DNA of 64,000 bases from Mobula hypostoma. Its lineage: Eukaryota. The notes beneath the pieces are model-generated. The model searched no databases, was not told the origin of the DNA, and worked only from the letters and a program-made list of their open reading frames with translations. Positions 3,846 through 64,000 of the stretch are shown one piece after another; position 1 is the stretch's first letter, and the number at the start of each line of letters is the position of its first letter. The stretch is from contig NC_086097.1 in NCBI RefSeq assembly GCF_963921235.1, positions 30,072,001 through 30,136,000 of the forward strand, written 5' to 3'. The position numbers and the translations under genes were made by a program.

Positions 3846-4415
3846 TGGCTCATCCTCAGCTCTGTCATACTGGTTCCCATTCCCCAGTCATGTTAGTTTA
3901 AACCACTCCCTACAGCTCTAGTAAACCTGCCCGCAAAGATATTGGTCCCCGTCAGATTCAAGTGCAACCTGTTCCTTTTATACAGGTCACACCTGCCCCA
4001 GAAGAGGTCCCAATTATCCAGAAATCTGACTCCCTGCCACCTGCTCCAATTCTTCAGGCCGAGCGGCATACTCCTGTTTGTATTTTCTTATGTTCTTGTA
4101 CTAAAGGACAATGGGACAGGGTGAGAGATGAGAGTGGAGTAATTACACAATGCAAGAGTTATTTTAGATACAAAGAGTTCATTCAAACTATATCCACATT
4201 TCTCTCCTTGAGTTCAAGTCTAACTGGTTCTTAGTGCATACGTTCTTCTGTATTTATTTATTTTCCTGTAAATACCTGCAAGAAAATGAATCCCAAAGCA
4301 GTACGTAGCAATGTATATGTAGTTTAATAATAAACTTTGACTTTGATTTCAAGTCAGTGCCTGGTCTCTCCTTTCCCTTTCTCCGCAACATCCTTAACTT
4401 CCTCAGGTTAAAGTT

Positions 4416-7400: not shown

Positions 7401-8980
7401 CCGTAGACAATCCCCCGATGACTTCCACCTTTTCTGCAGCCGTGACACTTTCTCTGATCAACAGTGCCATGCCCCCACCTCTTTTGCCTCCCTCCCTGCC
7501 CTTTCTGAAACATCTAAAGCCTGGCACTCTAGGTAACCATTTGTGCCCCTGAGCCATCCAAGTCTCTGTAATGGCCACAACGTCATAGCTCCAAGTACTG
7601 ATCCATGCTCTAAGACCATCGGCTTCATTCATAATACTCCTTGCATTAAAATAGACACATCTCAAACCATCGGTCTGAGTGCATCCCTTCTCTTTCACCT
7701 GCCTATCCTCCCTCTCGCACTGTCTCCAAGCTTTCTCTATGTGAGCCAACCTCCTCTTCCCCAGTCTCTTCAGTTCAGTTTCCACCCCCCAGCAATTCTA
7801 GTTTAAACTCTCCCCAATAGCCTTAGCAAACCTCCCAGCCAGGATATTGGTCCCCCTCGGATTCAAGTGCAACCTGTCCTTTTTGTACAGGTCACACCTG
7901 CCCCAAAAGAGGTCCCAATGATTCAGAAATCTGAATCCTTGCCCCTTGCTCCAATCCCTCAGACACGCATTTAGCCTCCACCTCACTGTCACGTGGCACA
8001 GGCAGTAATCCTGAGATTACTACCTTTGTGGTCCTGCTTCTCAACTTCCTTCCTAACTCCCTGTAGTCTGCTTTCAAGACCTCCTCCCTTTTCCTACCTA
8101 TGTCATTGGTACCAATATGTACCATGACCTCCGGCTGTTCTCCTTTCCACTTCAGGATATCATGATGCGATCAGAAACATCCCGGACTCTGGCACCTAGA
8201 AGGCAACCTACCATCCGTGTTTCTTTCCTGCGTCTACAGAATCGCCTGTCTAACCCCCTAACTATAGAGTCCCCCATCACTGCTGCCATCCTCTTCCTTC
8301 CCTATCCTTCTGAGCACAGGGCCAGACTCTGTGCCAGAGGCACTGCCACTGTTGCTTCCCCCAGGTAGGCTGTCCCCCCAACAGTACTTAAGCAGGAGTT
8401 CTGATTGTTAAGGGGGACAGCCACAGGGGTACTCTCCAGCATCTGACTCCTGCCTTTCCCTCTCCTGACTGTTAACTGCTTATCTGTCTCCCGAGGCCCC
8501 GGTGTGACTACCTGCCTGTAGGTCCTATGTATCACCTCCTCACTCTCCCTGACTAGATGAAGGTTAATGAGCTGCATCTCCAGTTCCCTAACGTGGTCCC
8601 TAAGGAGCTGCAGCTCCACACTCCTGGTGCAGATGTGGCCGTCCAGTAGGCTGGGATTTTCCAGGACTTCCCACATCTGACACCGAGCACAGAACACTGG
8701 CCTCACACACATATGTTTCATGTCCGTATTCTACTAGGCAACCTACCTCGCCTCGACCAATTATCACCGAAGCCCCGTTGAACCAAAGCCCTCCTACTCT
8801 GTCTCCCTCTACTCTGTTGCCCGCTTTATAAAGCTATCTCCTTCTAACCGGCTGACATCCATGCACTTGTGCAGTCATGCCTCGATCAAACTGCTGAAGA
8901 AATAACCGTCTCCTTTTAAACTCTTCTCGCTGTTCTAACCGGCTGATATCCACGTGCTTGCTCAGTCATGCCTCATTCAA
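4416..8980 (-). mobile_element. Near full-length CR1 LINE (5' UTR, ORF1, ORF2, TTCTATG-type tail); frameshifted and inactive
   Basis: ORF1 pieces CARCQMWE, VHIGTND, DRLHLN; ORF2 pieces CVYFNARS, DSDHN, DKSPGP, NYRPVSLTS, KFADDT; 3' tail at ~4416. Confidence 0.92.
6151..6563 (+). mobile_element. 5'-truncated CR1 3' fragment nested in the 4416-8980 CR1
   Basis: ERRRMRGDMIEVYKI...TRGHGFK; (TTCTATG)n tail; TSD gtcttat at 6144-6150 and 6564-6570. Confidence 0.9.
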
Positions 8981-10907: not shown

Positions 10908-11889
10908 TCTGTCAGGTCTCTCTTCAGCATCTGCCGTTCCAGAGAAAGCAATCCAAGTGTGTCCAACCTCTCCTTATAACTAATACCTGTATGTTTCCAA
11001 TACTTCCTCTCTAGTACTCTCTGTAGTGCAGTAGTCAAAACCCGCGCACAGTACTCTAGCTGGAGCTTAACTATTGATCCAATGAGACTGCCCTACTTTT
11101 GCAATCTGTGCTGGCAATCACTTCACTTATTACCACTCTCACATACCAACCACCTGCAAAATAGTGTCGTGCAGATGATATTCAAGATTCACCATTGTTT
11201 ACAGTCATTCTTCAGTACACGAGCATAAAGCAGAACTAAATGCTGCTGCTCTGGATCTGATGCAGCATAAAAAACACAATAAACATAAAAAAAAACATAA
11301 ATACAAAAACAATCCTATAAAACACAATGTATATCTAATTGATGAGTGTGGCCATATAAGATTAGCTTATATACTAGATTGATTGTATTTACATAAAGTG
11401 ATGGTGGGTACAGGAGTACCTCTTCGAAACTCGATGACCATTGGCTCCATACAGTGGGTGGTTTGCTACAACTGTTCGAGAGGGTTTAAATTAATTTGGC
11501 AGAAGTGATAAGGCTGAGGATGGGGCAGTTGGCTTACACACAGAGGCAGTGTGTAGTGAAACTGCTAGGAAGGAAAGGCTGATGATAAAGCAAAATTGCA
11601 ATCACTGGGATGAGTTGCAATGTAAAAGGGGGACAAAATCGAAAAGGGTGATAAATACAGGACTGAAGGTGTTATATTTGAATGCACGCTGTATATGAAA
11701 CAAAGTAGATGAACTTTAGCACAGTTACAGATTGGCATGTATGACATTGTGGGCCTCACTGAAAAGTGGCTGAATAAAGATCACAGTTGGGAGCTTAATG
11801 TCCAAGGATACACATTGTATCAAAAGGACAGGCAGCTAGGCAGAGGGTATGGGGTAGCTCTGTAGGTAAAAAATGAAATCAAATCATTA

Positions 11890-13744: not shown

Positions 13745-16731
13745 TTAGTCCCACTCCCCTGCCTTCTCACCATAACCTTTGATGCCCTGGCTACTCAGAT
13801 ACCTATCAATCTCTGCCTTAAATACACCCAATGACTTGGCCTCCACTGCTGCCCCCAGCAACAAATTCCATAGATTCACCACCCTCTGACTAAAAAAATT
13901 TCGTCGCATTTCTGTTCTGAATGGGTGCCCTTCAATCCTTAAGTCATGCCCTCTCGTACTAGACCTCCCCATCATGGGAAATAACTTTGCCACATCCACT
14001 CTGTCCATGTCTTTCAACATTCGAAATGTTTCTATGAGGTCTCCCCTCATTCTTCTAAACTCCAAGGAATACAGTCCAAGAGCGGACAAATGTTCCTCAT
14101 ATGTTAACCCTCTCATTCCCAGAATCATTCCAGTGAATCTTCTCTGTACCCTCTCCAACGTCAGCACATCCTTTCTTAAATAAGGAGACCAAAACTGCCC
14201 ACAGTACTCCAAGTGAGGTCTCACCAACGCCTTATAGAGCCTCAACATCACATCCCTGCGCCTATACTCTATTCCTCTAGAAATAAATACCAACATTGCA
14301 TTCGCTTTCTTCACTACCGACTCAACCTGGAGGTTAACCTTATGGGTATCCTGTACGAGGACTCCCAAGTCCCGTTGCATCTCAGAACTTTGAATTCTTT
14401 CCCCATTTAAATAATAGTCTGCCCGTTTATTTCTTCTGCCAAAGTGCATAACCATACACTTTCCAACATTGTATTTCATTTGCCACTTCTTTGCCCATTC
14501 TTCCAATCTATCCAAGTCTCTCTGCAGACTCTCTGTTTCCTCAGCACTGCCGGCCCCTCCACCTATCTTTGTATCGTCAGCAAACTTAGCTACAAAGCCA
14601 TCTATTCCATAATCCAAATTGTTGATGTACAATGTAAAAAGAAGCGGCCCCAACACGGACCCCTGTGGAACACCACCGGTAACCGGCAGCCAATCAGAAC
14701 AGGATCCCTTTATTCCCACTCTCTGTTTCCTGCCAATCAGCCAATGCTCTATCCACGTATGTGACTTTCCCATAATTCCATGGGCTCTTATCTTGTTAAG
14801 TAGCCTCATGTGTGGCACCTTGTCAAAGGCCTTCTGAAAATCCAAATATACAACATCTACTGCATCTCCCTTGTCTAGCCTACTTGAAATTTCCTCAAAA
14901 AAATTGTAATAGGTTTGTCAGGCAGGATTTTCCTTTAAGGAATCCATGCTGAGTTCTGCCTATCTTGTCATATGCCTCCAGGTACTCCGTAACTTCATCC
15001 TTGACAATCGACTCCAACAACTTCCCAACCACCGATGTCAAGCTAACAGGTCTATAATTTCCTTTTTGCTTCCTTGCCCCCTTCTTAAATAGCGGATTGA
15101 CATTTGCAATCTTCCAGTCCTCCGGAACCACGCCAGAATCTATCGACTTTTGAAAGATCATCGCTAATGCCTCCGCAATCTCCACAGCTACTTTCTTCAG
15201 AACACGAGGGTGCATTCCATCTGGTCCGGGAGATTTATCTACCTTTAGACTATTCAGCTTCCTGAGTACTTTCTCTGTCATAATTGTGACTGCGCACACT
15301 TCTCTTCCCTGCCACCCTTGAGTGTCCGGTATACTGCTGATGTCTTCCTCAGTGAAGACCGATGCAAAATACTGGTTCAGTTCCTCCGCCATCTCCTTAT
15401 CTCCCATTACAATTTCTCCAGCATCATTTTCTATCGGTCCTGTATCTAATCTCACCTGTCTTTTACTCTTTATATACTTGAAAAAGCTTTTAGTATCCTC
15501 CTTGATATTATTTGATAGCTTCCTTTCATAGTTAACCTTTTCCCTCTTAATGACCTTCTTAACTTCCTTCTGTAAGCTTTTAAAAACTTCCCAATCCCCT
15601 GTCTTCCCTCTAATTTTTCCTTCCCTCTTCTTTGCTTTAACTTTGGCTTTGACTTCTCGTCAACCACGGTTGCATCCTTTTTCCATTCGAAAATTTCTTC
15701 TTTTTTGGAATATACCTGTCTTGCACCTTCCTCACTTCTCGCATAAACTCCAGCCACTGCTGCTCTGCCGTCTTTCCTGCCAGTGTCCCTTTCCAGTCAA
15801 CTTTGGCCAGTTCCTCTCTCATGCCACTGTAATTTCCTTTACTCCACTGAAATACCGACACATCAGATTGCGGCTTCTCTTTTTCAAATTTCACAGTGAA
15901 CTCAATCATGTTATGATCACTGCCTCCTAAGGGTTCCTTCACCTCAATCTCTCAAATCACCTCCGGTTCATTACACAATACCCAATCCAGTACAGCTGAT
16001 CCCCTAGTGGGCTCAACAACAAGCTGTTCTAAAAAGCCATCTCGCAGACATTCTACAAATTCTCTCTCTTGAGATCCAGTGCCGACCTGAGTTTCCCAAT
16101 CCACTCGCATGTTAAAATCTCCCACAATTATCATAACACTGCCTTTCTGACAAGCCTTTTCTATTTCCAGTTGTAATTTGTAGTCCACATCACTACAGCT
16201 GTTTGGAGGCCTATAAATAACTGCCATCAGGGTCCTTTTACCCCTGCGATTTCTTAGCTCAACCCATAAAGATTCTGCACCTTCCGATCCTATATCACCT
16301 CTTTCTAATGATTTAATATAATTTCTTACCAATAAAGCCACGCCTCCCCCTCTGCCCACCTTCCTATCCTTCCAACACACCATGTATCCTTGGACGTTCA
16401 GCTCCCAGAGACATGCATCCTTTAGCCACGTCTCAGTGATGGCCACAACATCATACCTGCCAATCTGCAGCTATACGACAAGATCATCCACCTTATTCCT
16501 TATGCTGCATGCATTTAAGTATAACACCTTAAGACCAGTATTTGGTACTTTTCGCTTTGATTTCGCTGCAACTTTATTGCACTGCAACTCATCCCAATGG
16601 CTACAAATTTGCCCCATCACCTGCCAGTCTTTCCTGACATCTTTACTGCTCATGACCTTAGATTTATTTCTGTTTTCCCCTTCCTCCGCTCTATCATTCC
16701 AGTTCCCATCCCCCTGCCAAATTAGTTTAAA
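13745..16731 (-). pseudogene. CR1 ORF2 (APE endonuclease and reverse transcriptase) with 2 in-frame stops and 2 frameshifts
   Basis: [50 protein letters not shown]. Confidence 0.92.
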
Positions 16732-17657
16732 CACTCCCTAACAGCTGTATTAAACCTTCCCGCCAGGATATTGGCCCCCTTCGGGTTCAGGTGTAACCTG
16801 TCCATTTTGAACAGGTTATAGTTCTCCCAGAAGAGATCCCAATTATTCAAAAACCTGAAGCCCTGCCTCCTGCACCAGTCTCTCAGCCACGCATTCATCA
16901 GCCTGATCCTACTATTCTTGCCCTCGCTAGCACATGGCACAGGCAGCAATCCCGAGATTACTACCCTGGAGGTCCTGCTTCTCAGCTTCCTTCCTAACTC
17001 CTGGAAGTCTCTCTTCAGGACCTCCTCCCTTGTCCTATCTATGTCATTGGTACCAACGGGTACCAAGACAACTGGCTGCTCGCCCTCCCCCTTCAGAATA
17101 TTCTGGACCCGATCCGAGACATCCTGTACCCTGGCATCTGGGAGGCAACTCACTATGCAGGTATCTCTATCAGGCTCACAGAATCTCCTGTCCATTCCCC
17201 TGACTAAGGAATCCCCTATGACTACCGCATTCCTCTTCTCCCTCCTTCCTTCCTGCACAACAGCACCAGGCTCAGTGCCAGAGACCTGGTCACCGCGGGC
17301 GTCCCCTGTCAGGTCATCCCCCTCAACAACATATAGAACAAGATATTTGTTGCTGAGGGGGACAGCCACAGGTGTGCTCTCCACTATCCGGGCATTTCCC
17401 TTCCCTCTCTTGACAGTGACCCAGTTTTCTGACCCCTGTAGCCTAGGGATGACTACCTCCCTGTTGCTCCTGTTGATCACCTCTTCACTTTCCCTGATAA
17501 GCAGTAGGTCATCAAGCTGCAGCTCCAGATCCCTAACACGTTCTCCGAGGAGCTGCATCTCGGTGCATCTGGCGCAGATGTGGCCATCAGGGAGGCTGGA
17601 GGTCTCCCAGGATTTCCACATCTGACATCCTGAACGAAGCACTAACCCTGCAGGCAT
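16722..17657 (-). CDS. CR1 ORF1p: N-terminal Cys-rich and coiled-coil region plus SGNH esterase-like domain (311 aa, open)
   Basis: GDSLVRG, VGTND and DRLHL motifs; CARC...LQLDDL. Confidence 0.85.
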   Translation of the reverse strand: MPAGLVLRSGCQMWKSWETSSLPDGHICARCTEMQLLGERVRDLELQLDDLLLIRESEEVINRSNREVVIPRLQGSENWVTVKRGKGNARIVESTPVAVPLSNKYLVLYVVEGDDLTGDARGDQVSGTEPGAVVQEGRREKRNAVVIGDSLVRGMDRRFCEPDRDTCIVSCLPDARVQDVSDRVQNILKGEGEQPVVLVPVGTNDIDRTREEVLKRDFQELGRKLRSRTSRVVISGLLPVPCASEGKNSRIRLMNAWLRDWCRRQGFRFLNNWDLFWENYNLFKMDRLHLNPKGANILAGRFNTAVRECLN

Positions 17658-18663
17658 GCTATCTAATTCTACAGGAATGAAACAGGAAAAAAAAGTCTAC
17701 TCACCCACTTACCTCGCCAAACAGATGAACTTTTTAAACCATTAGCCGTGACAGCCCTACCTTATGAAGGTATTAGTAATAATCTTTCAAGAATCAATAG
17801 ATTCTGGCATGGTTCTGGAGGACTGCAAAATTGCAATTGTTATTCCTCTCTTCAAAAAGGGAGAGAGGCATAAGAAAGGAAATGATAGGCCAGTTAGTCT
17901 GATCTCAGTGGTTGGGAAGATGTTGGAGTCAATTGTTAAGAACGCGGTTTCGGAGTACTTGGAGGCATATGGTAAAATGAGCTGAAGCCAGCATGAGTTC
18001 CTTAAAGGAAAATCTTGCCTGACAAGGGAGACTCAGTGGATGTTGTGTGCTTGGATTTCTAGAAGGCCTTTGACAAGATGCTATACATGAGGCTGCTCAA
18101 CAAGAGCTCATGGTATTACAGGAAAGATACTAGCATGGTTAAAGCATTGGCTGATTGGCAGGTGGCAAAGAGTATGAATAAAGGGAGCCTTTTCTGGTTG
18201 ACTGCTGGTGACTTGTGGTGTTCCACAGGGGTCTGTGTTGAGACTTCCTTTTACGTTATATGTCAATGATTTGGATGACGGAATTGATGGCTTTGTGGTC
18301 AATTTTGCAGTTATATGAAGATAGGTGGAGGGGCTGGCAGTGTTGACTAAGCAGAGAGGCTGCAGAAGGACTTAGACAGATTAGGTCAATACCAAGAGGT
18401 GGCAAATGGAATACACTGTCGGGAAGTGTACGGTCATGTACTTTGGTAGAAGAAATAAAAGCATAGACTGTTTTCTAAGTGAAGAGAAAATTTTGAAAAC
18501 TGAGGTGCAAAGGTACTTGGAGTCCTCGTGGAGGATTCCCTAAAGGTTCGTTTGCAGGTTAAACAGTGGCAAGGAAGGCAAATTCATTTCAAGAGGACTA
18601 GAATATAAAAGCAAGGGTGTAATGTTGAGGATTTGAGACTGGTGAGACCTCGCTTGGAATATT

Positions 18664-18698: not shown

Positions 18699-21262
18699 TT
18701 GGAGTATTGTTTTAGGCCCCATATCTAAGAAAGGATGTGCTGGCATTGGAGAGGGTTCCAAGGGTGGTTACAAAAATTATTCCAGGATTGAAAGGCTTAT
18801 CACATGAGGAGCGTTTGATGGCTCTAGAAGTGTATTCACTAGAATTTAGAAAGAATAAGAATTTAGAAGATCTTCTTGAAACCTATCGAATGTTTAAAGG
18901 CCTCATTAGAGTGGATGTGGAGAGGATGTTTCCTATGATGGGGTAATCTAGGACCAGAGGACACAGCCTCAGAATAGAAGGACATCCATTTAGAAAGGAG
19001 ATGATGGGGACTTACTTTAGCCGGAGAGTGGCAAATCTGTACAATTCATTGTCACAGGAAGCTGTGGAGGCCAAGGCATTGGGTATATTTAAGGCTGAGG
19101 TTAAAAGATTCATGAGTGGCATAGGCATGGAGGGTTATGGGAAGAAGGTAGGAGATTGGGACTCAGAGAGAATTGGATCAGCCATGATGAAATGGAGGAG
19201 CAGATCAATGAGCTAAATGGCTGAATTCTGCTCCTATATTATATAGTCTTCTGGTGATTCTGATAGAAATGATAAAGTAACAAAGTGACTCTCTGCAACA
19301 GGAACTCTTCTAGGTAGCAGTAGGGCATATGAAAACACAGTAGGATAGTGACTGTTAGTGTAGGTATGAGATGTGGAGTGCAAGCGTAAAGTGGCAGCCA
19401 ATGAGGGTGCTGAGGCAAACAGAGGATGATATGGATGTAGTGGTGGTGGCGGATGGTATGACAAAATTATTAAAAGAGTTTGGTCCTTTCTAGAACATGT
19501 TATCTTTTATCAATCTGAGCAATTCAGTTTTCTGTAATAAATATTTGATTTTAAATCTCATGATATTTTTTCCATTTTGAATCAATACAGTGGCTAACAA
19601 AATTGGCTACACAGATAGATAGGCATAAGCTGTTTGAATTAATTAAATTTGCTTCAGGCCTTAAAGAGCATTTTATCATGGGGTTAGAACATAGAACACT
19701 ACAGCAGGGAACATACCCTTCAGCTCACCATGTTGTGCTGATCTTTTAACTTATTCTAAAAACAATCTAACACTTCCCTCCTACATAGCCCTCCATTTTC
19801 TATCATCTATGTGCCTATATAAGACCTTCTTAATGTCTTTGCCACCCACCACCCCTGGCAAACTGTTCTATGCACCTACCTCTCTGTGTTAGATACTTAT
19901 CTTTGACATCGCCCTCCTTATATTTTCCTCCACTCGCCTTAAAATTATGCCCCCTATTAGCTATATTGGATTGATGAGAAGAAATTGAATTTCAATGGTA
20001 CCTTTTAGAAGCTCTGCATCTTACAAGTACTTAAGGACTAAGTATGTTCTGAAGTTTACTCACTGTAAACTTGATTTGTGGACAGAAGCCACTACAAAGA
20101 GTATTTAAATAATCATGTTGGTCAAGAAATAATTAATGGCAAGATCTGTCTAAACACTATGTTCCTGTTTCTATTTATTTCTCTGACTTCGTTTTGCATT
20201 TTTAATGCAGCTCAAACTTCCAACCAATACACAGCAGTGAATCAGGAGTATAGATATGATTCATCAAGGGTGAAACACTAAGCTTAAAATCTGGATTACA
20301 ACATCTGAATTGTGTAATCAGAACTATGAAGTCAGATTTTAAAATGTTTGGTTCTACAAATATTACATACAGTGCCTATAAAAAGTATTCACCCAACTTG
20401 GAAGTTTTCATCTTCTATTGCTTTACAACATTAAATCACAGTGGATTTAATTTGACTTTTTTGACACTGATTAACAGAAAAAGACTCTTACAAAGTAAAT
20501 ACAGGTCTCTGCAAAATAATCTAAATTAATTACAAATGTAAAATACAAAATAATTGATTGCACAAGTATTCACCCCCCTTTAAAATGACACACCAAATCT
20601 TCACTGGTGCAACCAATTGGTTTTAGGAGTCACGTAATTAGTTAAGGTGTTCTACCTATATGCAAACCTGTGTGCATTCAAGGTGTTTCAACTGATGGTA
20701 GTAAAAATACACCCATATCTGGAAGGTCCAACTATTCGCAAGTCAGCATTGGGGCAAAAACTACACCATGAAGACAAAAGAACACTCTAAGCAACTGCAA
20801 GAAAAGCTTAATGAAAAATACAAGTCAAGAGATGGATACAAGAAAATTTCCAAGTCACTGAATATTCCTTGGAGTACAGTTAAGTCAATCAAGAAATGGA
20901 AAGAATATGGCAGAGCTGTGAAACTGCCTAGAGCAGGCCGTTCTCAAAATCTGAGTGACCATGCAAGAAGGGGACTAGTGTGGGAAGCCACCAATAGACC
21001 TATGACAACTCTAGAGGAGTTATAAGCTTTGGTGGCTGAGATGGGAGAGACTGCACATGCAAAAACTGTTGCCCAAGTGCTTCACCAGTTGCAGTTTTAT
21101 GGGAGAACAGCAAAAAGAAAGCCACTGTTAAAAAAAATTCTCAAGAAATCTTGGCTAGAGTTTGCCAGAAAGCATGTGGGAGACTCTGAAGTCAGCTGGA
21201 AGGTGGTTCTATGGTCTGATGAAACCAAAATTGAGCTTTTTGGCCATTAGACTAAATGCTAT

Positions 21263-32673: not shown

Positions 32674-33282
32674 TGAGGCGGTGTACAGGAATGAGATAGA
32701 TCAGCTAGTTGAGAGGCGTTACAACAATCTGGCATTCAATGTCAGTAAGGCCAAGAAAATGATTGTGGTCTTCAGGAAGGAGAAATCGAAAGAAAACATA
32801 GCAATCTTTTCAAGGGATCAGCAGTGGAAAGAGTGGGCAGCTGCAAGTTCCTGGGTACCGACATCTTTGTAGATCTATCCTGGATTCAGCATATTGATAC
32901 AATTTTGAAGAAGAAATGGCAGCGACTATATTTCCTAAGGAGTTTGACGAGGTTTTGGTATAACACTAAAGATTATCAAATTTCTATAAATGTACGGTGG
33001 AGAATATTCTGGCTGGTCACATTACCGTATGGTATGAAGGCACCAGTGCATAGAATCAGAAAAAAACTGCAGAGTTTTACAAAATCAGCCAGCTCCATCA
33101 GGGCACTTGCCTTCCCACACTGAGGACATCTTCAAAAGGTGATGCCTCAAGAGGGCAGCATACGTCATGAAGGATTTTCACCATTCAGAACAGGACGAGT
33201 CATTGAAAATGGAACTGAAAATCATGCAATTGTCAGAAAACATTTCCACTTCTGTCCTTATAGAAGGAAGGTCAGAGCAACA

Positions 33283-33467
33283 AACAATCTGCTGGAGGAA
33301 CTCAGCAGGTTGAGCAGCATCTGTGGGAGGAAAGGAATTGTTGACTACTTGGTTAAAAACACTGTGTCAAAACTGAGGCTGGGTTTCGACTCAAAACATA
33401 GTCAATTTCTCTCCCTCCCCTCACAACAGATGCAGCTTGACCCACTGAATTCCTCCAGCAGATTGTT
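33283..33467. mobile_element. Older fold-back PLE-terminus mini-element (23408-type family)
   Basis: Arms aacaatctgctggaggaactcag (33283-33305) and ctgaattcctccagcagattgtt (33445-33467). Confidence 0.75.
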
Positions 33468-33470
33468 ATT

Positions 33471-36400
33471 CCGCGACAGTGAGAGTAGGAATGCAATGAG
33501 GTGGAGGATAAATGCGTGGCTGAGGGATTGGAGCAGGGGGCAGGGATTCAAGTTTTTGGATCATTGGGGCCTCTTTTGGTGCAGGTGTGACCTGTACAAA
33601 AAGGACAGGTTACACTTGAATCCTAGGGGGACCAATATCCTGGCGGGGAGATTTGCAAGGGCTACTGAGGTGACTTTAAACTAGAATGGTTGGGGGGTGG
33701 GAATCAAATTAAAGAGACTAGGAGAGAGGAGGTTAGTTCACAACAGGGGGATGGGAACAAGTGCAGAGAGACAGAGGGGTGTAAAATGAGGGTAGAAGCA
33801 AAAAATAGTAAGGTGAAAAGTAAAAGTGGCAGGCCAGAAAATCCAGGGCAAAAATCAAAAAGGTCCACTTTTCAACATAATTGTATAAGGGCTAAGAGTG
33901 TTGTAAAAGCAAGCCCGAAGGCTTTGTGTGTCAATGCAAGGAGCATTCGTAACAAGGTGGATGAATTAAAAGTGCAGATTGTTATTAATGAATATGATAT
34001 ATTTAGGATCACAGAGACATGGCTCCAGGGTGACCAAGGATGGGAGCTCAATATTCAGGGATATTCAATATTCAGGAGGGATAGACATGAAAGAAAAGGA
34101 GGTGGGGTAGCATTGCTGGTTAGAGAGGAGATTAACGCAATAGAAAGGAAGGATATTAGCCGGGAGGGTGTGGAATCGATATGGGTAGAGCTGCATAACA
34201 CTAAGGGGCAGAAAACGTGGGTGGGAATTGTGTACAGGCCACCTAACAGTAGTAGTGAGGTTGGGGATGGCATTAAACAGGAAATTAGAAATGCATGCAA
34301 TAAAGGAACAGCAGTTATAATGGGTGACTTCAATCTACATATAGATTGGGTGAAGCAAGTTGGTAAGGGTGCTGAGGAAGAGGATTTCTTGGAATGAATG
34401 CGGGATGGTTTTTTGAACCAACATATCGAGGAACCAACTAGACAGCAGGCCATTCTAGACTGGGTATTGAGCAATGAGGAAGGGTTAGTTAGCAATCTTG
34501 TCATGAAAGGCCCCTTGGGTAAGAGTGACCATAATATGGTGGAATTCTTCATTAAGATGGAGAGTGACATAGTTAATTCGGAAACAAAGGTTCTGAACTT
34601 AAAGAAGGGTAACTTTGAAGATATGAGACGTGAAATAGCTAAGATAGACTGGCAAATGATACTTAAAGGGTTGACAGTGGATATGCAATGGCAAGCATTT
34701 AAAGATCGCATGGATGAACTACAACAATTGTTCATCCCAGTTTGGCAAAAGGATAAATCAAGGAAGGTAGTGCACCCGTGGCTGACAAGGGAAATTAGGG
34801 ACAGTATCAATTCCAAAGAAGAAACATACAAATTAGCCAGAAAAATCAGCTCACCTGAGGACTGGGAGAAATTCAGAGTCCAGCAGAGGAGGACAAAGGG
34901 CTTAATTAGGAAAGGGAAAAAAGATTATGAGAGAAAACTGGCAGGGAACATAAAAACTGACTGTAAAAGCTTTTACAGATATATGAAAAGAAAAAGATTG
35001 GTTAAGACAAATGTTGACAGACAGAAATAGGTGAATTGATTATGGAGAACAAGGACATGGCAGACCAATTGAATAACTACTTTGGTTCTGTCTTCACTAA
35101 GGAGGACATAAATAATCTTCCAGAAATAGTAGGGGACAGAGGGTCTAGTGAGATGGAGGAACTGAGGGAAATAAATGTTAGTAGGGAAGTGGTGTTAGGT
35201 AAATTGAGGGGATTAAAGGCAGATAAATCCCCAGGGCCAGATGGTCTGCATCCCAGAGTGCTTAAGGAAGTAGCCCAAGAAATAGTGGATGCATTAGTGA
35301 TAATTTTTCAAAACTCTTCAGATTCTGGACTAGTTCCTAAGGATTGGAGGGTGGCTAATGTAACCCTGCTTTTTTAAAAAAGGAGGGAGAGAGAAACCAG
35401 AGAATTATAGACCAGTTAGCCTAACATCGGTGGTGGGGAAAATGCTAGAGTCAGTTATCAAAGATGTGATAACAGCACATTTGGAAAGCAGTGAAATCAT
35501 CGGACAAAGTCAGCATGTATTTGTGAAAGGAAAATCATGTCTGACGAATCTCATAGAATTTTTTGAGGATGTAACTAGTAGAGTGGATAGAGGGGAGAAC
35601 CAGTGGATGTGGTATATTTGGATTTTCAAAAGGCTTTTGACAAGGTCCAACACAGGAGATTAGTGTGCAAACTTAAAGCACACGGTATTGGGGGTATGGT
35701 ATTGATGTGGATAGAGAATTGGTTGGCAGACAGGAAGCAAAGAGTGGGAATAAACGGGACCTTTTCAGAATGGCAGGCAGTGACTAGCAGGGTACCGCAA
35801 GGCTCAGTGCTGGGACCCCAGCTGTTTACAATATATATTAATGACTTAGATGAGGGAATTAAATGCAGCATCTCCAAGTTTGCGGATGACACAAAGCTGG
35901 GCGGCAGTGTTAGCTGTGAGGAGGATGCTAAGAGGATGCAGGGTGACTTGGATAGGTTAGGTGAGTGGGCAAATTCATGGCAGATGCAATTTAATGTGGA
36001 TAAATGTGAAGTTATCCACTTTGGTGGCAAAAAACAGGAAAACAGATTATTATCTGAATGGTGGCCAATTAGGAAAAGGGGAGGTGCAACGAGACCTGGG
36101 TGTCATTATACAGCAGTCATTGAAAGTGGGCACGCAGGTACAGCAGGCGGTGAAGAAGGCGAATGATATGCTGGCATTCATAGCAAGCGGATTCGAGTAC
36201 AGGAGCAGGGAGGTACTACTGCAGTTGTACAAGGCCTTGGTGAGACCATACCTGGAGTATTGTGTGCAGTTTTGGTTCCCTAATCTGAGAAGACATTCTT
36301 GCCATAGAGGGAATACAAAGAAGGTTCACCAGATTGATTCCTGGGATGGCAGGACTTTCATATGATGAAAGACTGGATCAACTAGGCTTATACTCGTTGG

Positions 36401-48344: not shown

Positions 48345-51300
48345 GATAATTTTTTTTTCTTCGGCAGTTGAATGGGGCACAACTGCGCAAATGCGTGAAA
48401 GTCAGACCATGAGGCAGCGGGAGTGTTTAAAAGCCAGAAGATTAACGGAGCGGGCGACGTTGTAGCGGGCGAAGGAGTAGAGGGAGACAGAGTAGGAAGG
48501 CTTTGGCTCGAGAGGCTTCGGCGAGCTTCACTCCAAGTGAGGTAAGGCCGGGTAAGTTCCTTTAATTGATTTAATTACCTTAAGAGTAGGTAATGGAGGC
48601 AGCAGTTAGGGCAGTTCAGTGCTCCGTTTGCAGTATGTGGGAAGTCAGGGCAAGCACAATTGTCCCTGATGACTACACCTGTAAAAGGTGCATCCAGCTG
48701 CAGCTCCTGACAAACCGAGTTAGGGAACTGCAGCTGGAGATGGATGAACTACGGATCATTCGGCAGGCAGAGGCAGAAATAAACAGGAGTTACAGGGAGA
48801 TAGTTACCCCTAAGAGTCAGGAGACAGGTAGCTGGGTGACTGTCAGGAGAGGGAAGGGGAATAGACAGAATGAGCAGAGCACCCCTTTGGCCGTTCCCAC
48901 CAATAATAAGTATATGGGGACGACCTACCAGGGACAAGTTGCAGTGGTTGCATCTCTGGCACCGAGTCGGGACCCTCAGCTCAGAAGGGAAGGAGAGAAA
49001 AGAGGAGAGCAGTAGTGATAGAGGATTCGATAGTTAGGGGGACAGATAAGAGGTTCTGTGGAAGAGATCGAGAATCCCATATGGTCTGTTGCCTCCCTGG
49101 TGCCAGGGTCTGCGATATCTCGGATTGAGTTCTCAGTATTCTCAAGAGGGAGGGTGAGCAGCTGAATGTCGTGGTCCATGTAGGGACCAATGACGTGGGT
49201 AGGAAGAGTGAGGAGGTCCTGAAAGGTGAGTTTAGGGAGTTAGGCGCCAAGTTAGAGGACAAGACCTCCAGGATAGCAATCTCAGGATTGCTACCAGTGC
49301 CACGTGCAGGCGGGTTCAAAAATAGTAAGATGGCGCAGATCAACACGTGGCTGAAGACATGGTGCAGGAGGGAGGGCTTCAGATTTATAGATAATTGGGC
49401 AGTTTTCCAGGGAAGGTGGGACCTGTTCCAGTGGGACGATTAACATCTGAACTGGAGGGGGACAAATATTCTTACAGGTAGGTTTGCTAGAGAGGCTCCT
49501 GTGGATTTAAACTAGATACGAGGGGGGAGGGGAACCAGAGAGTAGGAACAGGTGTAGGGGAGAAGAAAGAAAAATAGTAAAGTTATTTGCACCGTTAGTG
49601 ATAAATAGAGAGTAAGAGGTGGAAAATTTCTTAAATGCATTTATTTTAATGCTAGGAGCATTATAAGAAAGGTCAATGGGCTTAAAGCATGGATGTCCAA
49701 TCCCTATACACCTCCATTCCCCATGAAAAAGGCCTCAAAGCCCTCCACTACTTTCTGGATAATAGACCTCACCAGTTCCCCACCACCACTACCCTCCTCC
49801 GGTTGGCAGAACTGGTTCTCACACTCAATAATTTCTCTTTTGGCTCTTCCCACTTTCTTCAGACCAAGGGTGTAGCTATAGGAACTCGCATGGTCCCTAG
49901 CTATGCCTGCCTCTTCATTGGTTATGTGGAACAGTCTGTGCTCCAAACCTATTCTGGTACTACTCCCCAACTTTTCCTTTGGTACACTGACGACTACATT
50001 GGTGCTGCTTCCTGCACCCATGCTGAGCTCGTCAATTTCATCGACTTTACTTCTAACTTCCACCCAGCCCTCAAATTCACTTGGTCTATCTCAGACACTT
50101 CTCTCCCCCTTTCTTGATCTCTCGGTCTCCATCTCTGGAGACAGACTGTCCACTGACATCTCCTACAAGCCCACTGACTCTCATAACTACCTCAACTATA
50201 CCTCTTCCCACCCTGCCATATGCAAAAGTGCCATTCCCTATTCCCAGTTCATCCGTCTCCGCCACATCTGCTCCAAGGATGAGGTTTTCGGTTCCAGGAC
50301 ATCTCAAATGTCTTCTTTCTTTAAGGATCGTGGTTTCCCTTCTGCTATCATCAGTGATGCCCTCACCTGCATCTCCTCCATTTCCCGCACTTCGGCTCTC
50401 ACCCCTCCTCCCGCCACCACAACAGGGACAGAGTTCCCCTTGTCCTCACCTACCACCCCACTAGCCTCCGGATCGAACACATTATCCTCCGCAACTTCCG
50501 CCACCTTCAACAGGACCCCACCACTAAGCACATCTTTCCCTCTCCACCCCTCTCCGCCTTCCGCAGGGATCGGTCCCTCCGCAACTCCCTGGTCCACATG
50601 TCCCTCCCCACGGATCTCCCACCTGGCACTTATCCCTGTAAGCGCAAGTGCTACACCTGTCCCTACACCTCCTCCCTTGCCACCATTCAGGACCCCAAAC
50701 AGTACTTCCAAGTGAGGCAACACTTCACTTGTGAGTCTGTTGGGGTCATCTATTGCATTCGGTGCTCCCAGTGCGGCCTCCTCTATATCGGTGAAACCCG
50801 ACGCAGATTGGGGGACCGCTTCGTCAAGCACCTCCGCTCCGTCCGCCAAAACAGACAGGATCTCCCAGTAGCCACCCACTTCAACTCTGCTTCCCACTCC
50901 CATTCAGACATGTCCATACATGGCCTCCTCTACTGCCATGATGAGGCTAAACTCAGGTTGGAGGAGCAACACCTCATATACTGTCTAGGTAGACTCCAGC
51001 CCTTTGGTATGAACAGAGAATTCTCCAACTTCCGGTAATTCCCTCCCCCTCCCTTCTCCTATCCCTATGTCACTCTGTCCCCTCCCTCAGCTGCCTACCA
51101 CCTCCCCATGGTCCCGCCTCCTTCTACTACCCATTGCATTTTCCCCTATTCTTTCTTCACCTTTCCTGCCTATCACCTCCCTGCCTCCCTTCCCCCACCC
51201 CTTTATCTTTCCCCTTACTGGTTTTTCACCTGGAACCTACCAGCCTTCCCCTTCCCACCCTCCCCCCACCTTCTTTATAGGGCCTCTGTCCCTTCCCCCT

Positions 51301-54389: not shown

Positions 54390-55235
54390 TCTAAACACAC
54401 CTAACAAACTCCACCCCATCTAAACCCCTCGCTCTTGGGAGATGCCAATCAATATTTGGGAAATTAAAATCTCCCACAACAACCCTGTTACTATTACACC
54501 TTTCCTGAATCTGTCTCTCTATCTGCTCCTCGATGTCTCTGTTACTATTGGGCGGCCTATAAAAAACACCCAGTAGAGTTATTGACCCCTTCCTGTTCCT
54601 AACCCACCCACAGACACTCCATAGACAATCCCTCTATGACTTCCTCCTTTTCTGCAGCCGTGACATTTTCTCTGATCAACAGTGCCACACCTCCACCTCT
54701 TTTGCCTCCCTCCCTATCCTTTTTGAAACATCTAAAGCCTGGCACTCGAAATAACCATTTGTGCCCCTGAGCCATCCAAGTCTCTGTAATGGCCAAAACA
54801 TCATAGCTCCAAGTACCGATCCATGCTCTGAGCTCATCCGTTTTATTCATAATACTCCTTGAATTAAAATAGACACATCTCAAACCATCGGTCTGAGCGC
54901 ATCCCCTCTCTATCACCCGTCTATCCTCCCTTTCACACTGTCTCCAAGCTTTCTCTATTTGTGAGCCAACCACCTCTTCCTCCATCTCTTTAGTTCAGTT
55001 CCCACCCCCCAGCAATTCTAGTTTAAACTCTGCCCAATAGCCTTAGCAAACTTCCCTGCCAGGATATTGGTTCCCCTCGGATTCAAGTGCAACCCATCCT
55101 TTTTGTACAGGTCACACCTACCCCAAAAGAGGTCCCAGTGATCCAGAAATCTGAATCCCTGCCCCCTGTTCCAATCCCTCAGCCATGCATTTATCCTCCA
55201 CCTCACTCTATTCCTATAGTCACTGTCACTATTCC
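54390..55235 (-). mobile_element. CR1 internal fragment (ORF1 end and ORF2 start), family of 4416-8980
   Basis: DGLHLNPRGTNILAG..SLN*; CVYFNSRS, ITETW. Confidence 0.88.
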
Positions 55236-61199: not shown

Positions 61200-64000
61200 T
61201 TGTCCGTACCAGGGTCCGGGATGTCTCTGACCGGGTGCACGACGTCCTGGTACGAGAGGGAAAGCAACCAGAAGTTGTGATACATGTTGGTACCAACGAT
61301 ATAGGCAGGAAGAGGAAGTGTGAGTTTCAAGAACCAGGCAGAAGGCTGAAGAACAGGACCTCAAGGGTGGTGTTCTCAGGATTGCTGCCAGTGCTACGTG
61401 ACAGTGATGGTAAGAATTAGAGGAGATAGTAGTTGAATGCGTGGCTGAGGAGTTGGTACAGGGGGCAGGGTTTTAGATTTTTGGATCACTAGGATCTCTT
61501 CTGGGAAAGGTGGGACCTGTACAGATTGGATGGGTTGCACCTGAACTCGAGAGGGAGCAATATCCTTGCAGATAGGTTTGCTAGCATAATTTGGGAGGGT
61601 TTAAACTAATTTGCAAGGGGGATGGGACCTAGAGCGATAGAGCAGTGGAAGAAGTGCATGGAGTAAAGCCAGATCTAACATATAAAGAGGCTTTGAGGAA
61701 ACAGAAGCAGAATAAAGGGTGTAAAGGTAGTAAGGTAAAAGGGCTAAAATGCGTGTACTTCAATGCAAGAAGCATCAGGAACACAGGTGATGAACTGAGA
61801 GCTTGGATACATACATGGAATTATGATGTAGTGGCCATTACAGAGAATTGGCTAGCACCAGGGCAGGAATGGATTCTCAATATTCCTGGATTTCAGTGCT
61901 TTAACAGGGATAAAGAGGGGGGAAAGGGGAGGAGGGGTGGCATTACTGGTCAGGGATACTATTACAGCTACAGAAAGGGTGGGTAATGTAGCACGATTCT
62001 CTTTTGAATCAGTATGGGTGGAAATCAGGAACAGGAAGGGAGCAGTTACTCTATTGGGAGTATTCTATAGGCCCCCTGGTAGCAGCAGAGATACTGAGGA
62101 GCAGCTTGGGAGGCAGATTTTGGAAAGCTGCAAAAATAACAGTGTTGTTATTATAGGTGACTTTAACTTCCCTAATATTGATTGGCACCTGATTAGTTCC
62201 AAGGGTTTGGATGGGGCAGAGTTTGTTAAGTGTGTCCAGGACGGATTCCTGTCACAGTATGTTGACAGGCTGACTAAGGGGAATGCCATACTAGATCTAG
62301 TATTAGGTAATGAACCGGGTCAGGTCCCAGATCTCTCAGTGGGTGAGCATCTGGGGGACAGTGACCACCGCTCCCTGGCCTTTAGCATTATCATGGAAAA
62401 GGATAGAATCAGAGAGGACAGGAAAATTTTTAATTGGGGAAGGGCAAATTATGAGGCTATAAGGCTAGAACTTGCGGGTGTGAATTGGGATGATGTTTTT
62501 GCAGGGAAATGTACTATGGACATGTGGTCGATGTTTGGGGATCTCTTGCAGGATGTTAGGGATAAATTTGTCCCGGTGAGGAAGATAAAGAACGGTACAG
62601 TGAAGGAACCATGGGTGACAAGTGAGGTGGAAAATCTAGTCAGGTGGAAGAAGGCAGCATACATGAGGTTTAGGAAGCAAGGATCAGATGGATCTATTGA
62701 GGAATATAGGGTAGCAAGAAAGAAGCTTAAGAAGGGACTGAGGAGAACAAGAAGGGGACATGAGAAGGCCTGGGCGAGTAGGGTGAAGGAAAACCTCAAG
62801 GCATTCTTCAATTATGTGAAGAACAAAAGGATGACAGGAGTGAAGGTAGGACCCATTAGAGTTAAAGGTGGAAAGATGTGCCTGGAGGCTGTGGTAGTGA
62901 GCGAGGTCCACAATGAATACATCTCTTTGGTATTCAACAATGAGAGGGAACTTGATGGCAGTGAGGACAATATGAGTGAGGTTGATGTTCTGGAGCATGT
63001 TGATATTAAGGGAGAGGAGATGTTGGAGTTGTTAAAATACATTAGGACGGATAAGTCCCCGGGGCCTGACGGAATATTCCCCAGCTGGTCCACGAGGCGA
63101 GGGAAGAGATTGCTGAGCCTCTGTCTAAGATCTTTATGTCCTCGTTGTCCACAGGAACGGTACCGGAGGTTGGGAGGGAAGCGAATGTTGCCCCTTTGTT
63201 CAAAAAAAGGTAGTAGGGATAGTCCGGGTAATTATAGACCAGTGAGCCTTAGGTCTGTGGTGGGAAAACTATTGGAAAAGATTCCTAGAGATAGGATCTG
63301 TGGGCATTTAGAGAATCATGGTCTGATCAGGGACAGTCAGCATGGCTTTGTGAAGGGTAGATCATGTCTAACAAGCCTGATAGAGTTCTTTGAGGAGGTG
63401 ACCAGGCATATAGATGAGGGTAGGGCAGTAGATGTGATCTACATGGATTTTACTAAGGCATTTGACAAGGTTCCACACGGTAGGCTTATTCAGGAAGTCA
63501 GAGGGCATGGGATCCAGGGAAGTTTGGCCAGGTGGATTCAGAATTGGCTTGCCTGCAGAAAGCAGAGGTCGTGGTGTAGGGAGTACATTTGGATTGGAGG
63601 GTTGTGACTAGTGGGGTCCCACAAGGATCGGTTCTGGGACCTCTACTTTTCGTGATTTTTATTAACCACTTGGATGTCGGGGTAGAAGGGTGGGTTGGCA
63701 AGTTTGCAGATGACACAAAGGTTGGTGGTGGTGTGGATAGTGTAGAGGATTATCGAAGATTGCAGAGAGACATTGATAGGATGCAGAAGTGGGCCGAGAA
63801 GTGGCAGATAGAGTTCAACCCGGAGAAGTGTGAGGTGGTACACTTTGGAAGGACAAACTCCAAGGCAGAGTACAAAGTAAATGGTAGGATACTTGGTAGT
63901 GTGGAGAAGCAGAGGGATCTGGGGTTACATGTCCATAAATCCCTGAAAGTTGCCTCACAGGTAGATAGGGTAGTTAAGAAAGCTTACGGGGTGTTAGCTT
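61200..64000 (+). mobile_element. CR1 LINE, 5'-truncated in ORF1, running off the window end
   Basis: IHVGTND; CVYFNARS; 556-aa ORF 61937-63607 with GDFNFP, DSDH, DKSPGPDG, DFTKAFDKVPH. Confidence 0.93.

What the first reader, a model, noticed from the sequence alone, without database searches (positions are those of the whole stretch)
16690..16734. Slippery heptamer U UUA AAC at every CR1 ORF1/ORF2 junction: candidate -1 programmed ribosomal frameshift
Seen: the intact ORF1 ends T TTA AAC TAA (16731-16722). The -1 frame reads TTT AAA CTA ATT TGG (FKLIWQG) and runs into the APE domain. The same heptamer-plus-stop, in the same ORF1 phase, occurs at 3902(-), 7807(-), 33675(+), 49506(+), 55027(-) and 61600(+); 11485(+) has TTTAAAT. 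These copies belong to several subfamilies whose flanking sequence differs. Most are followed within ~10 nt by a G-rich tract (GGGGGATGGG or GGGGGGTGGG). Known: X XXY YYZ heptamers, and UUUAAAC in particular (coronaviruses), drive -1 frameshifting, whereas L1-type LINEs use reinitiation. Inference: these CR1s may make an ORF1-ORF2 fusion, Gag-Pol style. I cannot check whether this has been reported.
Basis: partly seen in the sequence, partly recalled or inferred. Interest (0 to 1): 0.85.

Follow-up and report, generated by a model that had tools for sequence, protein, structure and literature searches.

The report
Ribosome slip site joining CR1 genes
The CR1 jumping genes that fill this skate-like fish genome all end their first gene with the classic slippery sequence U UUA AAC, placed so that a ribosome slipping back one base reads on into the start-less second gene, which suggests that these elements make their reverse transcriptase as a Gag-Pol-style fusion protein.

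Summary
All 8 CR1 ORF1/ORF2 junctions in the window carry T TTA AAC (one T TTA AAT) plus TAA/TAG in the ORF1 phase, and ORF2 lies in the -1 frame.

In the window's own 3.48-Gb genome, 129 of 150 junction-bearing loci that I fetched keep the heptamer. They fall into about 10 diverged junction types.

- **Nucleotide constraint.** Across types, the codon before Leu encodes six amino acids but always ends in T. TTA and AAC never vary, although Leu and Asn codons 20 codons upstream vary synonymously.
- **Frame.** The -1 frame is closed 2-13 codons upstream. It then has no stop for the 47-78 codons to the endonuclease domain in all but one representative, against 4-12 stops in each other frame.
- **Translation.** The -1 frame encodes a conserved G-x-G-N-Q peptide with synonymous changes.
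- **No start codon.** At least six types lack an in-frame AUG before the endonuclease.
- **Other vertebrates.** ORF1 proteins of a sawshark, an eel, turtles and lizards also end in invariant Leu-Asn.

The best reading is a -1 programmed frameshift that makes an ORF1-ORF2 fusion.

Two weaknesses remain. No 3' stimulatory RNA structure is predicted, and no trans-frame protein has been observed. I found no report of this in the searchable literature.

The parts
16725..16731 (-). Slippery heptamer T TTA AAC in ORF1 phase (X XXY YYZ), window copy with intact ORF1
16722..16724 (-). ORF1 stop codon TAA directly after the heptamer
16722..17696 (-). ORF1, open for 324 codons; C-terminal GDSL/SGNH esterase domain (PF13472, E 3.5e-12)
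16738..16740 (-). TAG stop in the -1 (ORF2) frame, two codons upstream of the heptamer; it closes the ORF2 frame so entry must occur at or after this point
16471..16737 (-). Start of the ORF2 frame (-1 relative to ORF1): linker plus start of the endonuclease domain. Ends at an in-frame stop in this decayed copy
16702..16713 (-). GGG GAT GGG AAC: G-rich tract encoding G-D-G-N in the -1 frame, conserved in 8 of 9 junction types at a fixed distance from the heptamer
13745..16470 (-). Rest of ORF2 (endonuclease and reverse transcriptase, PF00078 E 1.3e-22), broken in this copy by in-frame stops and frame changes
3896..3902 (-). Heptamer TTTAAAC + TAA, decayed copy (type E)
7801..7807 (-). Heptamer TTTAAAC + TAG, decayed copy (type D)
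11485..11491 (+). Variant heptamer TTTAAAT + TAA, decayed copy; the G-tract is deleted
33675..33681 (+). Heptamer TTTAAAC + TAG (type C); the -1 frame ORF2 is open for 240 codons into the endonuclease domain (PF03372)
49506..49512 (+). Heptamer TTTAAAC + TAG, decayed copy (type F)
55021..55027 (-). Heptamer TTTAAAC + TAG, decayed copy (type D)
61600..61606 (+). Heptamer TTTAAAC + TAA, decayed copy (type B)

Best explanation
These are CR1-clade LINEs with an esterase-type ORF1 and an endonuclease plus reverse transcriptase ORF2. I propose that ORF2 has no initiation site of its own.

Proposed mechanism (inferred): a minority of ribosomes translating ORF1 reach U UUA AAC with tRNA-Leu on UUA in the P site and tRNA-Asn on AAC in the A site, one codon before the stop. 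Both tRNAs slip back one base onto UUU AAA. Translation then continues with CUA in the -1 frame. The product is an ORF1-ORF2 fusion reading ...x-L-N-L-(I/E/D/S)-...G-x-G-N-Q..., followed by a variable basic/acidic linker, the endonuclease and the reverse transcriptase. Ribosomes that do not slip terminate and make ORF1 protein alone. The result is a Gag to Gag-Pol type ratio.

Shown by sequence: the heptamer, its phase, its conservation beyond what the codons require, the frame relation, the closed frame upstream, coding in the -1 frame from the heptamer onward, and the lack of a conserved AUG.

Inferred: that slipping actually occurs, how efficient it is, and that the fusion is the active form. 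No strong RNA stimulator is predicted. Efficiency is therefore probably low, perhaps helped by the adjacent stop codon or by the G-rich tract.
For: 1. **Phase and position.** All 8 window junctions read N-NT TTA AAC/T stop in the ORF1 frame.

2. **Genome-wide sample.** The heptamer is intact in 129 of 150 junction-bearing loci fetched from the own genome. By set the counts are 24/30, 29/30, 11/16, 34/39, 15/18 and 16/17. The losses are private point changes or indels, as expected for dead copies.

3. **Nucleotide-level constraint between lineages.** In 9 junction types the codon before Leu is GGT, ACT, AGT, GAT, GCT or TGT. That is six amino acids, all with T in third position. TTA and AAC are invariant. 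In the same 7 types, 5 of 8 upstream codons with an invariant amino acid vary synonymously, including Leu CTG/TTG and Asn AAC/AAT at codons -20 and -19. Only 5 of 19 upstream third positions are invariant.

4. **Frame.** The -1 frame has a stop 2-13 codons before the heptamer. From the heptamer to the endonuclease motif (47-78 codons) it has 0 stops in 7 of 8 representatives and 1 in the decayed copy L113. The other two frames have 3-6 and 4-12 stops.

5. **Translation of the -1 frame right after the site.** Codons 5-9 encode G-x-G-N-Q in 8 types, with synonymous changes GGG/GGA, AAC/AAT and CAG/CAA.

6. **No conserved start.** Types Cb, D, F and G have no in-frame ATG before the endonuclease; for example L049 has its first Met at codon 291 in a frame open for at least 502 codons. 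Types B and J have none in the 57-65 codons read. Types A and Ca have one at codon 38 or 37. No near-cognate start codon is conserved in the entry window.

7. **Depth in evolution.** Of the 150 best ORF1 homologues (representatives of 50%-identity clusters), 47 end in LN. Leu and Asn are 2 of 13 invariant columns in 14 ORF1s that share 26-46% identity with the window ORF1. Named members come from a sawshark, an eel, turtles and lizards. The residue before LN takes 12 forms, but only 1 of 40 is E/K/Q/M/W, which cannot end in T, against a 16% background (binomial P 0.008).

8. **Read laying.** About 19,000-20,700 contigs per DNA run matched the junction stretch. Depth peaks in the bin holding the heptamer. 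None of the 40 listed variants (of 184 at 5% or more) lies in 16702-16732.
Against: - No stable or conserved RNA structure follows the site. Seven representatives fold worse than their shuffles (z +0.66 to +2.07). RNAalifold finds 2 pairs with no covariation.
- A two-tier G-quadruplex is predicted in only 4 of 11 sequences and is no better than shuffles. Canonical efficient -1 frameshifting needs a stimulator.
- Within the youngest family the heptamer decays like its flanks (mismatch 0.029 against 0.018-0.025). The constraint is therefore visible only between lineages, and those lineages share descent.
- The statistics are modest (about 0.02 and 0.008), and the cluster representatives are not independent.
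- DNA of other species could not be read, so outside this genome only Leu-Asn is shown, not UUUAAAC.
- No trans-frame peptide or ribosome footprint was seen.
- Human L1 shows that a LINE can translate ORF2 without its AUG by another route (review passage).
- Of 61 homologues with a full C-terminus, 20 end otherwise than LN or GN.
Confidence: 0.7

Rival explanations
1. AUG-independent termination-reinitiation or non-AUG initiation. Ribosomes finish ORF1 at the stop and some restart nearby in the ORF2 frame, as proposed for human L1. ORF2 protein is then made free of ORF1.
For: Several types lack an ORF2 AUG, which also fits an AUG-independent restart. The review passage says L1 ORF2 uses an unknown initiation independent of the AUG. 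SART1 couples the ORFs through UAAUG with a downstream structure (review passage). A conserved (U/G)GGGAA lies downstream and resembles, from recall, the calicivirus UGGGA restart motif.
Against: This does not explain why seven nucleotides in exact X XXY YYZ phase are invariant, including a third position whose codon changes amino acid. There is no stop-start overlap and no conserved AUG or near-cognate codon in the entry window. The UGGGA-like motif lies downstream of the stop, whereas known restart motifs lie upstream (recalled). The -1 frame is already open and coding from the heptamer.
Confidence: 0.17
2. The heptamer is conserved for another reason, such as an RNA or DNA signal or a needed Leu-Asn C-terminus. 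ORF2 is then made from internal AUGs or supplied in trans by the lineages that have one.
For: Types A, Ca and I do have an in-frame AUG 10-38 codons after the heptamer. NCBI models of a skate relative start at that Met. No stimulator is predicted.
Against: Those AUGs are not at conserved positions, and the other six types lack one. L049 is open for at least 502 codons with its first Met at codon 291. A protein requirement for Leu-Asn would allow synonymous codons, as seen 20 codons upstream, and would not fix the third base of the preceding codon. The palindrome GTTTAAAC is not what is kept, because types C, F and G have C, A and C before the heptamer.
Confidence: 0.08
3. Historical accident. 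All lineages inherited the sequence from one ancestor, and too little time has passed for change.
For: The lineages share descent, and within the young family the site decays neutrally.
Against: The flanks have diverged strongly. ORF1 tails are 46-67% identical in amino acids within the window, and mean column identity at the junction is 65%. Leu-Asn persists in ORF1s that share only 26-46% identity with the window ORF1, from sharks to lizards.
Confidence: 0.05

Closest known systems
Rous sarcoma virus gag-pol -1 frameshift (A AAU UUA UAG; recalled from Jacks et al. 1988, not read here)
   Same: The slippery heptamer is the last two sense codons of the upstream gene, with its stop codon immediately after. 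The downstream polymerase gene is in the -1 frame with no start of its own. The product is a fusion made in a fixed minority.
   Different: The virus has a strong downstream stem-loop or pseudoknot and a protease that cleaves the fusion. Here no structure is predicted and no protease domain was seen. The element is a non-LTR retrotransposon.
Coronavirus and arterivirus ORF1a/1b frameshift at U UUA AAC
   Same: The heptamer is identical. It is among the most efficient in vertebrate ribosomes (established knowledge; listed in the review found).
   Different: The viral sites depend on a pseudoknot 5-7 nt downstream. The CR1 site has only a purine-rich, G-rich tract starting 9-10 nt downstream.
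PEG10 and other retrotransposon-derived genes, and LTR retrotransposons, with G GGA AAC type -1 frameshifts
   Same: A retroelement gag-pol logic that operates in vertebrate cells. A second group of ORF1 homologues ends in invariant Q-G-N (9 of 150), which would fit G GGA AAC.
   Different: Those derive from LTR elements and have pseudoknots. The QGN reading is an inference from protein only, because I could not read that DNA.
Human LINE-1 ORF2 translation (unconventional, AUG-independent) and SART1 UAAUG coupling
   Same: A bicistronic LINE RNA with very low ORF2 output and no dependence on the ORF2 AUG (review passages).
   Different: L1 has an inter-ORF spacer and SART1 a stop-start overlap, and both give a separate ORF2 protein. 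CR1 has a phased slippery heptamer, a 2-13 codon overlap and no start codon.
Drosophila HeT-A gag frameshift (non-LTR retrotransposon)
   Same: A precedent that a non-LTR element needs a frameshift for expression (review passage).
   Different: It lies within gag of an element that has no reverse transcriptase, so it is not an ORF1-ORF2 junction. The details were not read here.

Membership tests
Canonical -1 programmed ribosomal frameshift signal | Heptamer X XXY YYZ in the upstream (0) frame | tested here: met
   T TTA AAC is in ORF1 phase in 8 of 8 window junctions (one has AAT) and in 9 of 9 junction types.
Canonical -1 programmed ribosomal frameshift signal | Downstream ORF in the -1 frame, overlapping, without its own initiation codon | tested here: met
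   ORF2 is always in the -1 frame and is closed 2-13 codons upstream. Types Cb, D, F and G have no in-frame ATG before the endonuclease, and types B and J have none in the 57-65 codons read.
Canonical -1 programmed ribosomal frameshift signal | Heptamer conserved beyond what the encoded amino acids require | tested here: met
   The third-position T is kept across six different codons. There is no synonymous change at TTA AAC, whereas 5 of 8 control codons vary. The protein-level test gives P 0.008.
Canonical -1 programmed ribosomal frameshift signal | Stimulatory RNA structure (stem-loop or pseudoknot) 5-9 nt downstream | tested here: not met
   z-scores are +0.66 to +2.07 in 7 of 7 representatives. 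The alignment fold gives 2 pairs with no covariation. G-quadruplex prediction is inconsistent. A protein-bound linear element cannot be excluded.
Canonical -1 programmed ribosomal frameshift signal | Trans-frame protein made at a set ratio | not testable with these tools
   This needs a reporter assay, mass spectrometry or ribosome profiling.
CR1-clade LINE (Jockey superfamily) | ORF1 with an SGNH/GDSL esterase domain; ORF2 with an apurinic-type endonuclease and a reverse transcriptase | tested here: met
   PF13472 3.5e-12; PF03372 1.1e-8; PF00078 1.3e-22. A 2026 survey states that esterase-type ORF1 is the only ORF1 subtype identified in vertebrate CR1 and L2 (passage).
CR1-clade LINE (Jockey superfamily) | Placement by reverse transcriptase phylogeny; 3' end with hairpin and microsatellite | not tested
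No tree was built and the 3' ends were not examined.
Termination-reinitiation (UAAUG coupling or upstream rRNA-binding motif) | Start codon overlapping or within a few nt of the stop | tested here: not met
   No ATG lies near the stop in the ORF2 frame in any type.

The most novel reading that the evidence does not exclude
CR1 LINEs, the dominant retrotransposons of sharks, reptiles and birds, have for more than 400 million years expressed their reverse transcriptase only as an ORF1-ORF2 fusion made by -1 ribosomal frameshifting at U UUA AAC. A sister lineage uses G GGA AAC instead. The shift works without an RNA pseudoknot, helped by the adjacent stop codon or by a factor bound to the G-rich tract, possibly ORF1 protein itself. 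Vertebrate genomes would then carry thousands of working frameshift sites, and LINEs would include a true Gag-Pol strategy.
Probability: 0.35. Interest if true: 0.85.

Novelty: new variant of a known kind. Interest (0 to 1): 0.75.

Why it matters
How bicistronic LINEs translate ORF2 is an old open question. The review passages I read call the L1 mechanism unknown, and a 2013 review of non-LTR protein biogenesis does not contain the word frameshift.

A phased, deeply conserved slippery heptamer at the CR1 junction gives a concrete and cheaply testable answer for one of the largest transposon clades in vertebrates.

If it is true, several things follow:
- ORF2 protein would be physically tethered to ORF1 protein, which would explain cis-preference and the dosing of ORF2.
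- The annotation of CR1 ORF2 would change, because current gene models start at arbitrary internal Met codons.
- It would add an apparently structure-independent frameshift site to the small set of cellular -1 frameshift sites in vertebrates.

Tried and rejected
- **G-quadruplex or hairpin stimulator.** I folded 7-11 representatives and an 8-sequence alignment. Nothing came out better than shuffles, so I dropped it as a claim.
- **G-tract as a purely RNA-level element.** Types G and J change GGG to GGA and type C changes AAC to AAT while keeping G-x-G-N. The conservation is therefore at least partly that of a peptide. One copy (L104) has the tract shifted by 2 nt, and a single dead copy cannot decide the point.
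- **First AUG of the window copy (KVMSS) as the ORF2 start.** It is ATA GTG in most of the 30 relatives.
- **The palindrome GTTTAAAC as the conserved unit.** Rejected.
- **DNA from other species.**
  - Single-protein scans of metagenome contigs gave nothing or one spurious locus, L137, which is not a CR1.
  - Scans of viral contigs gave nothing.
- **Other ORF1 kinds in the own genome.** Searches with a QGN-type ORF1 and an L2-like ORF1 returned only the LN-type families at 44% identity or less. No contrasting junction could be studied.
- **Expression.** No RNA holder is listed. Run X15 is only guessed to be RNA, and its contigs cover the junction. This says nothing either way.
- **Earlier notes of this scan.** Three look-ups gave nothing relevant.
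- **Literature.** Eight full-text searches and passages in eight papers gave no report of frameshifting at a CR1 junction. Kojima 2005 and Kapitonov and Jurka 2003 are not held. Supplements were not consulted.
Full report
**What is there.**

The window is vertebrate DNA packed with CR1-like LINE copies.

- ORF1 of the copy at 16722-17696(-) is open for 324 codons and carries a GDSL/SGNH esterase domain.
- The downstream frames carry an apurinic-type endonuclease and a reverse transcriptase.
- The closest named relatives of the ORF2 start come from a skate.
- The window lies in a 3.48-Gb assembly that the tools could search.

The same heptamer plus stop, in the same phase, stands at the six other places named. 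TTTAAAT stands at 11485.

A tblastn of ORF1 against the window found 7 ORF1 tails, and all 7 end at one of these heptamers. In an alignment of the eight junctions, TTTAAA.TA is the longest invariant block, while mean column identity is 65%.

**More copies.**

I searched the window's own genome with ORF1 tails of different window copies and with two distant ORF1 proteins. Each search had 56,000-126,000 first-look candidates, of which 123-150 were scored.

I fetched 154 loci, two of which are the window's own copies. For some searches these were the top 30. For one search I took 16 rows with long open ORF1. For one search I took about every fourth row, 40 in all. For some searches I took 20 and 18 rows with unusual ORF1 lengths or low identity.

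Four loci (L116, L118, L120, L138) held no parsable junction. Of the other 150, 129 have TTTAAAC intact:

| Set | Intact |
|---|---|
| 1 | 24/30 |
| 2 | 29/30 |
| 3 | 11/16 |
| 4 | 34/39 |
| 5 | 15/18 |
| 6 | 16/17 |

The exceptions are private changes (TTTAATC, TTTGAAC, TTTAAGC, CTTAAAC, single-base indels), as expected for dead copies.

In the youngest family the heptamer decays like its flanks (mismatch 0.029 against 0.018-0.025). In the mixed older groups D and E it varies less than its flanks (0.000 and 0.027 against 0.033-0.079). Six of the 16 type F loci were left out of that count because indels shift the register.

Post-insertion decay is neutral, so the informative comparison is between lineages.

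**Between lineages.**

The copies fall into about ten junction types, which I call A-J, with different flanks.

In the nine types tabulated, the zero-frame codon before Leu is GGT, ACT, AGT, GAT, GCT or TGT. These are six amino acids, and every codon ends in T. TTA and AAC never change, and the stop is TAA or TAG.

In the same lineages the last 20 ORF1 codons give a control (seven types):
- Of eight upstream codons whose amino acid is invariant, five vary synonymously. They include a Leu (CTG/TTG) and an Asn (AAC/AAT) in the LHLN motif.
- Only 5 of 19 upstream third positions are invariant. All three third positions in the heptamer are invariant.

The palindrome GTTTAAAC is not what is kept, because types C, F and G have C, A and C in front.

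**The ORF2 frame.**

In every type ORF2 is in the -1 frame. That frame carries a stop 2-5 codons upstream of the heptamer, or 10-13 codons in type I. Entry must therefore occur at or just after the heptamer.

From the heptamer to the first endonuclease motif is 47-78 codons. Seven of the eight representatives have no stop in the -1 frame over that distance. The eighth, the decayed copy L113, has one. The other two frames have 3-6 and 4-12 stops.

The first codons after the slip are translated. Codons 5-9 read G-x-G-N-Q in eight types, with synonymous changes (GGG/GGA, AAC/AAT, CAG/CAA) and conservative ones (D/E/G). Codons 2-4 vary freely but without indels.

An in-frame ATG between the heptamer and the endonuclease exists in type A (codon 38), type Ca (codon 37) and type I. 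The other types show none:
- In types Cb, D, F and G, none before the endonuclease.
- In types B and J, none in the 57-65 codons read.

L049 is open for at least 502 codons, with its first Met at codon 291. The first ATG of the window copy is ATA GTG in most of its 30 relatives. No near-cognate start codon is conserved in the entry window. Some sampled copies have both a full ORF1 and a long open -1 frame, so the arrangement belongs to recently active elements.

**Other vertebrates.**

A full HMMER search of 1.84 billion cluster representatives with ORF1 gave 2111 hits. Of the 150 best, 47 end in LN and 9 in QGN.

In an alignment of 14 ORF1 proteins that share 26-46% identity with the window ORF1, the final Leu and Asn are 2 of only 13 invariant columns, while the 15 residues before them vary. 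Named members come from a sawshark, a deep-sea eel, three turtles and two lizards.

The residue before LN takes 12 forms in 40 homologous C-termini. Only one (Glu) is an amino acid whose codons cannot end in T, against 16% such residues in the ten positions before it (binomial P 0.008). The representatives are not independent, so this is supportive and not decisive.

The QGN group keeps Q-G-N invariant after a variable tail. That would fit CAG GGA AAC, which contains G GGA AAC, another classic slippery heptamer. This is an inference from protein, because I could not reach the DNA.

Of 61 homologues with a full C-terminus, 33 end in LN, 8 in GN and 20 otherwise, so not every esterase-ORF1 lineage has this end.

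**Reads.**

I laid contigs of three DNA runs and one run guessed to be RNA on 16450-17000.
- About 19,000-20,700 contigs per DNA run matched.
- Depth has a local peak in the bin that holds the heptamer.
- None of the 40 listed variants (of 184 at 5% or more) lies in 16702-16732.
- The base two before the heptamer differs from the window copy in 93-97% of the depth across the four runs, so the usual codon is GGT and not TGT.

The variant list is cut, so this is weak support.

**What speaks against.**

A canonical site has a stem-loop or pseudoknot 5-9 nt downstream. Here the downstream RNA is purine-rich.
- Seven representatives fold worse than their shuffles (z +0.66 to +2.07).
- The alignment fold has 2 pairs without covariation.
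- With G-quadruplexes allowed, a two-tier quadruplex appears in 4 of 11 sequences and is no better than shuffles.

The G-rich tract starts 9-10 nt after the heptamer and keeps its distance in 7 of 8 types. That spacing recalls the protein-dependent linear stimulators mentioned in the review passage. However, it also encodes the conserved peptide, so its role is open.

Without a stimulator, UUUAAAC would give low-level slipping. That may be enough for a LINE, which needs little ORF2 protein (general knowledge). It is nevertheless the main gap, together with the lack of any protein evidence.

**Mechanism and rivals.**

I put about 0.7 on a -1 frameshift at U UUA AAC that gives an ORF1-ORF2 fusion reading ...L-N-L-x..., with the variable charged linker as tether.

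A restart after termination without an AUG, as proposed for L1, gets about 0.17. It explains the missing AUG but not the phased, codon-independent conservation of seven bases.

Conservation for another purpose with internal AUG use gets about 0.08. Plain inheritance gets about 0.05.

A single-ORF form exists in some CR1 and L2 subgroups according to the passage read, so a covalent link between ORF1-type domains and ORF2 is viable in this clade.

**Known or new.**

Frameshift fusion of gag and pol is textbook for retroviruses and LTR elements, and the heptamer is that of coronaviruses. A non-LTR precedent (HeT-A gag) is mentioned in the review.

For CR1 junctions I found nothing in eight full-text searches or in passages of eight papers. 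These include a 2016 recoding review, a 2013 review of non-LTR protein biogenesis (0 uses of 'frameshift') and a 2026 survey of vertebrate CR1-group elements (0 uses of 'frameshift' or 'overlap'). The earliest CR1 papers and Kapitonov and Jurka 2003 are not held, so an early remark cannot be excluded.

I rate it a new variant of a known kind, with interest 0.75.

Noticed in passing
L031-L060 (own genome); window 33675-33800: Behind the same ORF1 tail and junction (type C), two unrelated ORF2 linkers follow after ...GTTAGTTCACAA. One has an ATG (..QQGDGNKCRETEGCKMRVE..). The other has none (..QIEKASRQCVRED..) and resembles type D. This suggests recombination between lineages just downstream of the junction.
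   Followed up: partly
window 33745-33765; L044, L056: The type Ca linker holds a second copy of the CAGGGGGATGGGAAC motif (again Q-G-D-G-N) about 60 nt after the first.
   Followed up: no
P0050, P0059, P0060, P0063, P0075, P0082, P0106, P0124, P0131: A group of esterase ORF1 proteins from unnamed metagenome or run assemblies ends in invariant Q-G-N after a variable tail. This would fit G GGA AAC at the same position.
   Followed up: partly
window 33124-33465: The first 114 residues of the open ORF1-frame stretch at the 33675 copy match no other copy in the genome search; only residues 115-186 do. The copy is chimeric or 5'-truncated into other sequence.
   Followed up: no
L139-L142, L153 (own genome): Junction type I has a long G run of variable length (7 to more than 10 G) starting 8 nt after the heptamer. 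The -1 frame is open 10-13 codons upstream instead of 2-5.
   Followed up: no
G000 contig C91, about 352768-415006: Four hits with near-identical scores lie within 62 kb. This looks like a segmental or tandem duplication that carries a CR1 fragment.
   Followed up: no
window 13745-16470 (-): The copy with an intact ORF1 has a decayed ORF2. There are in-frame stops at 16471-16473 and about 15949-15951, and frame changes near 15640-15660 and 14895-14917.
   Followed up: partly
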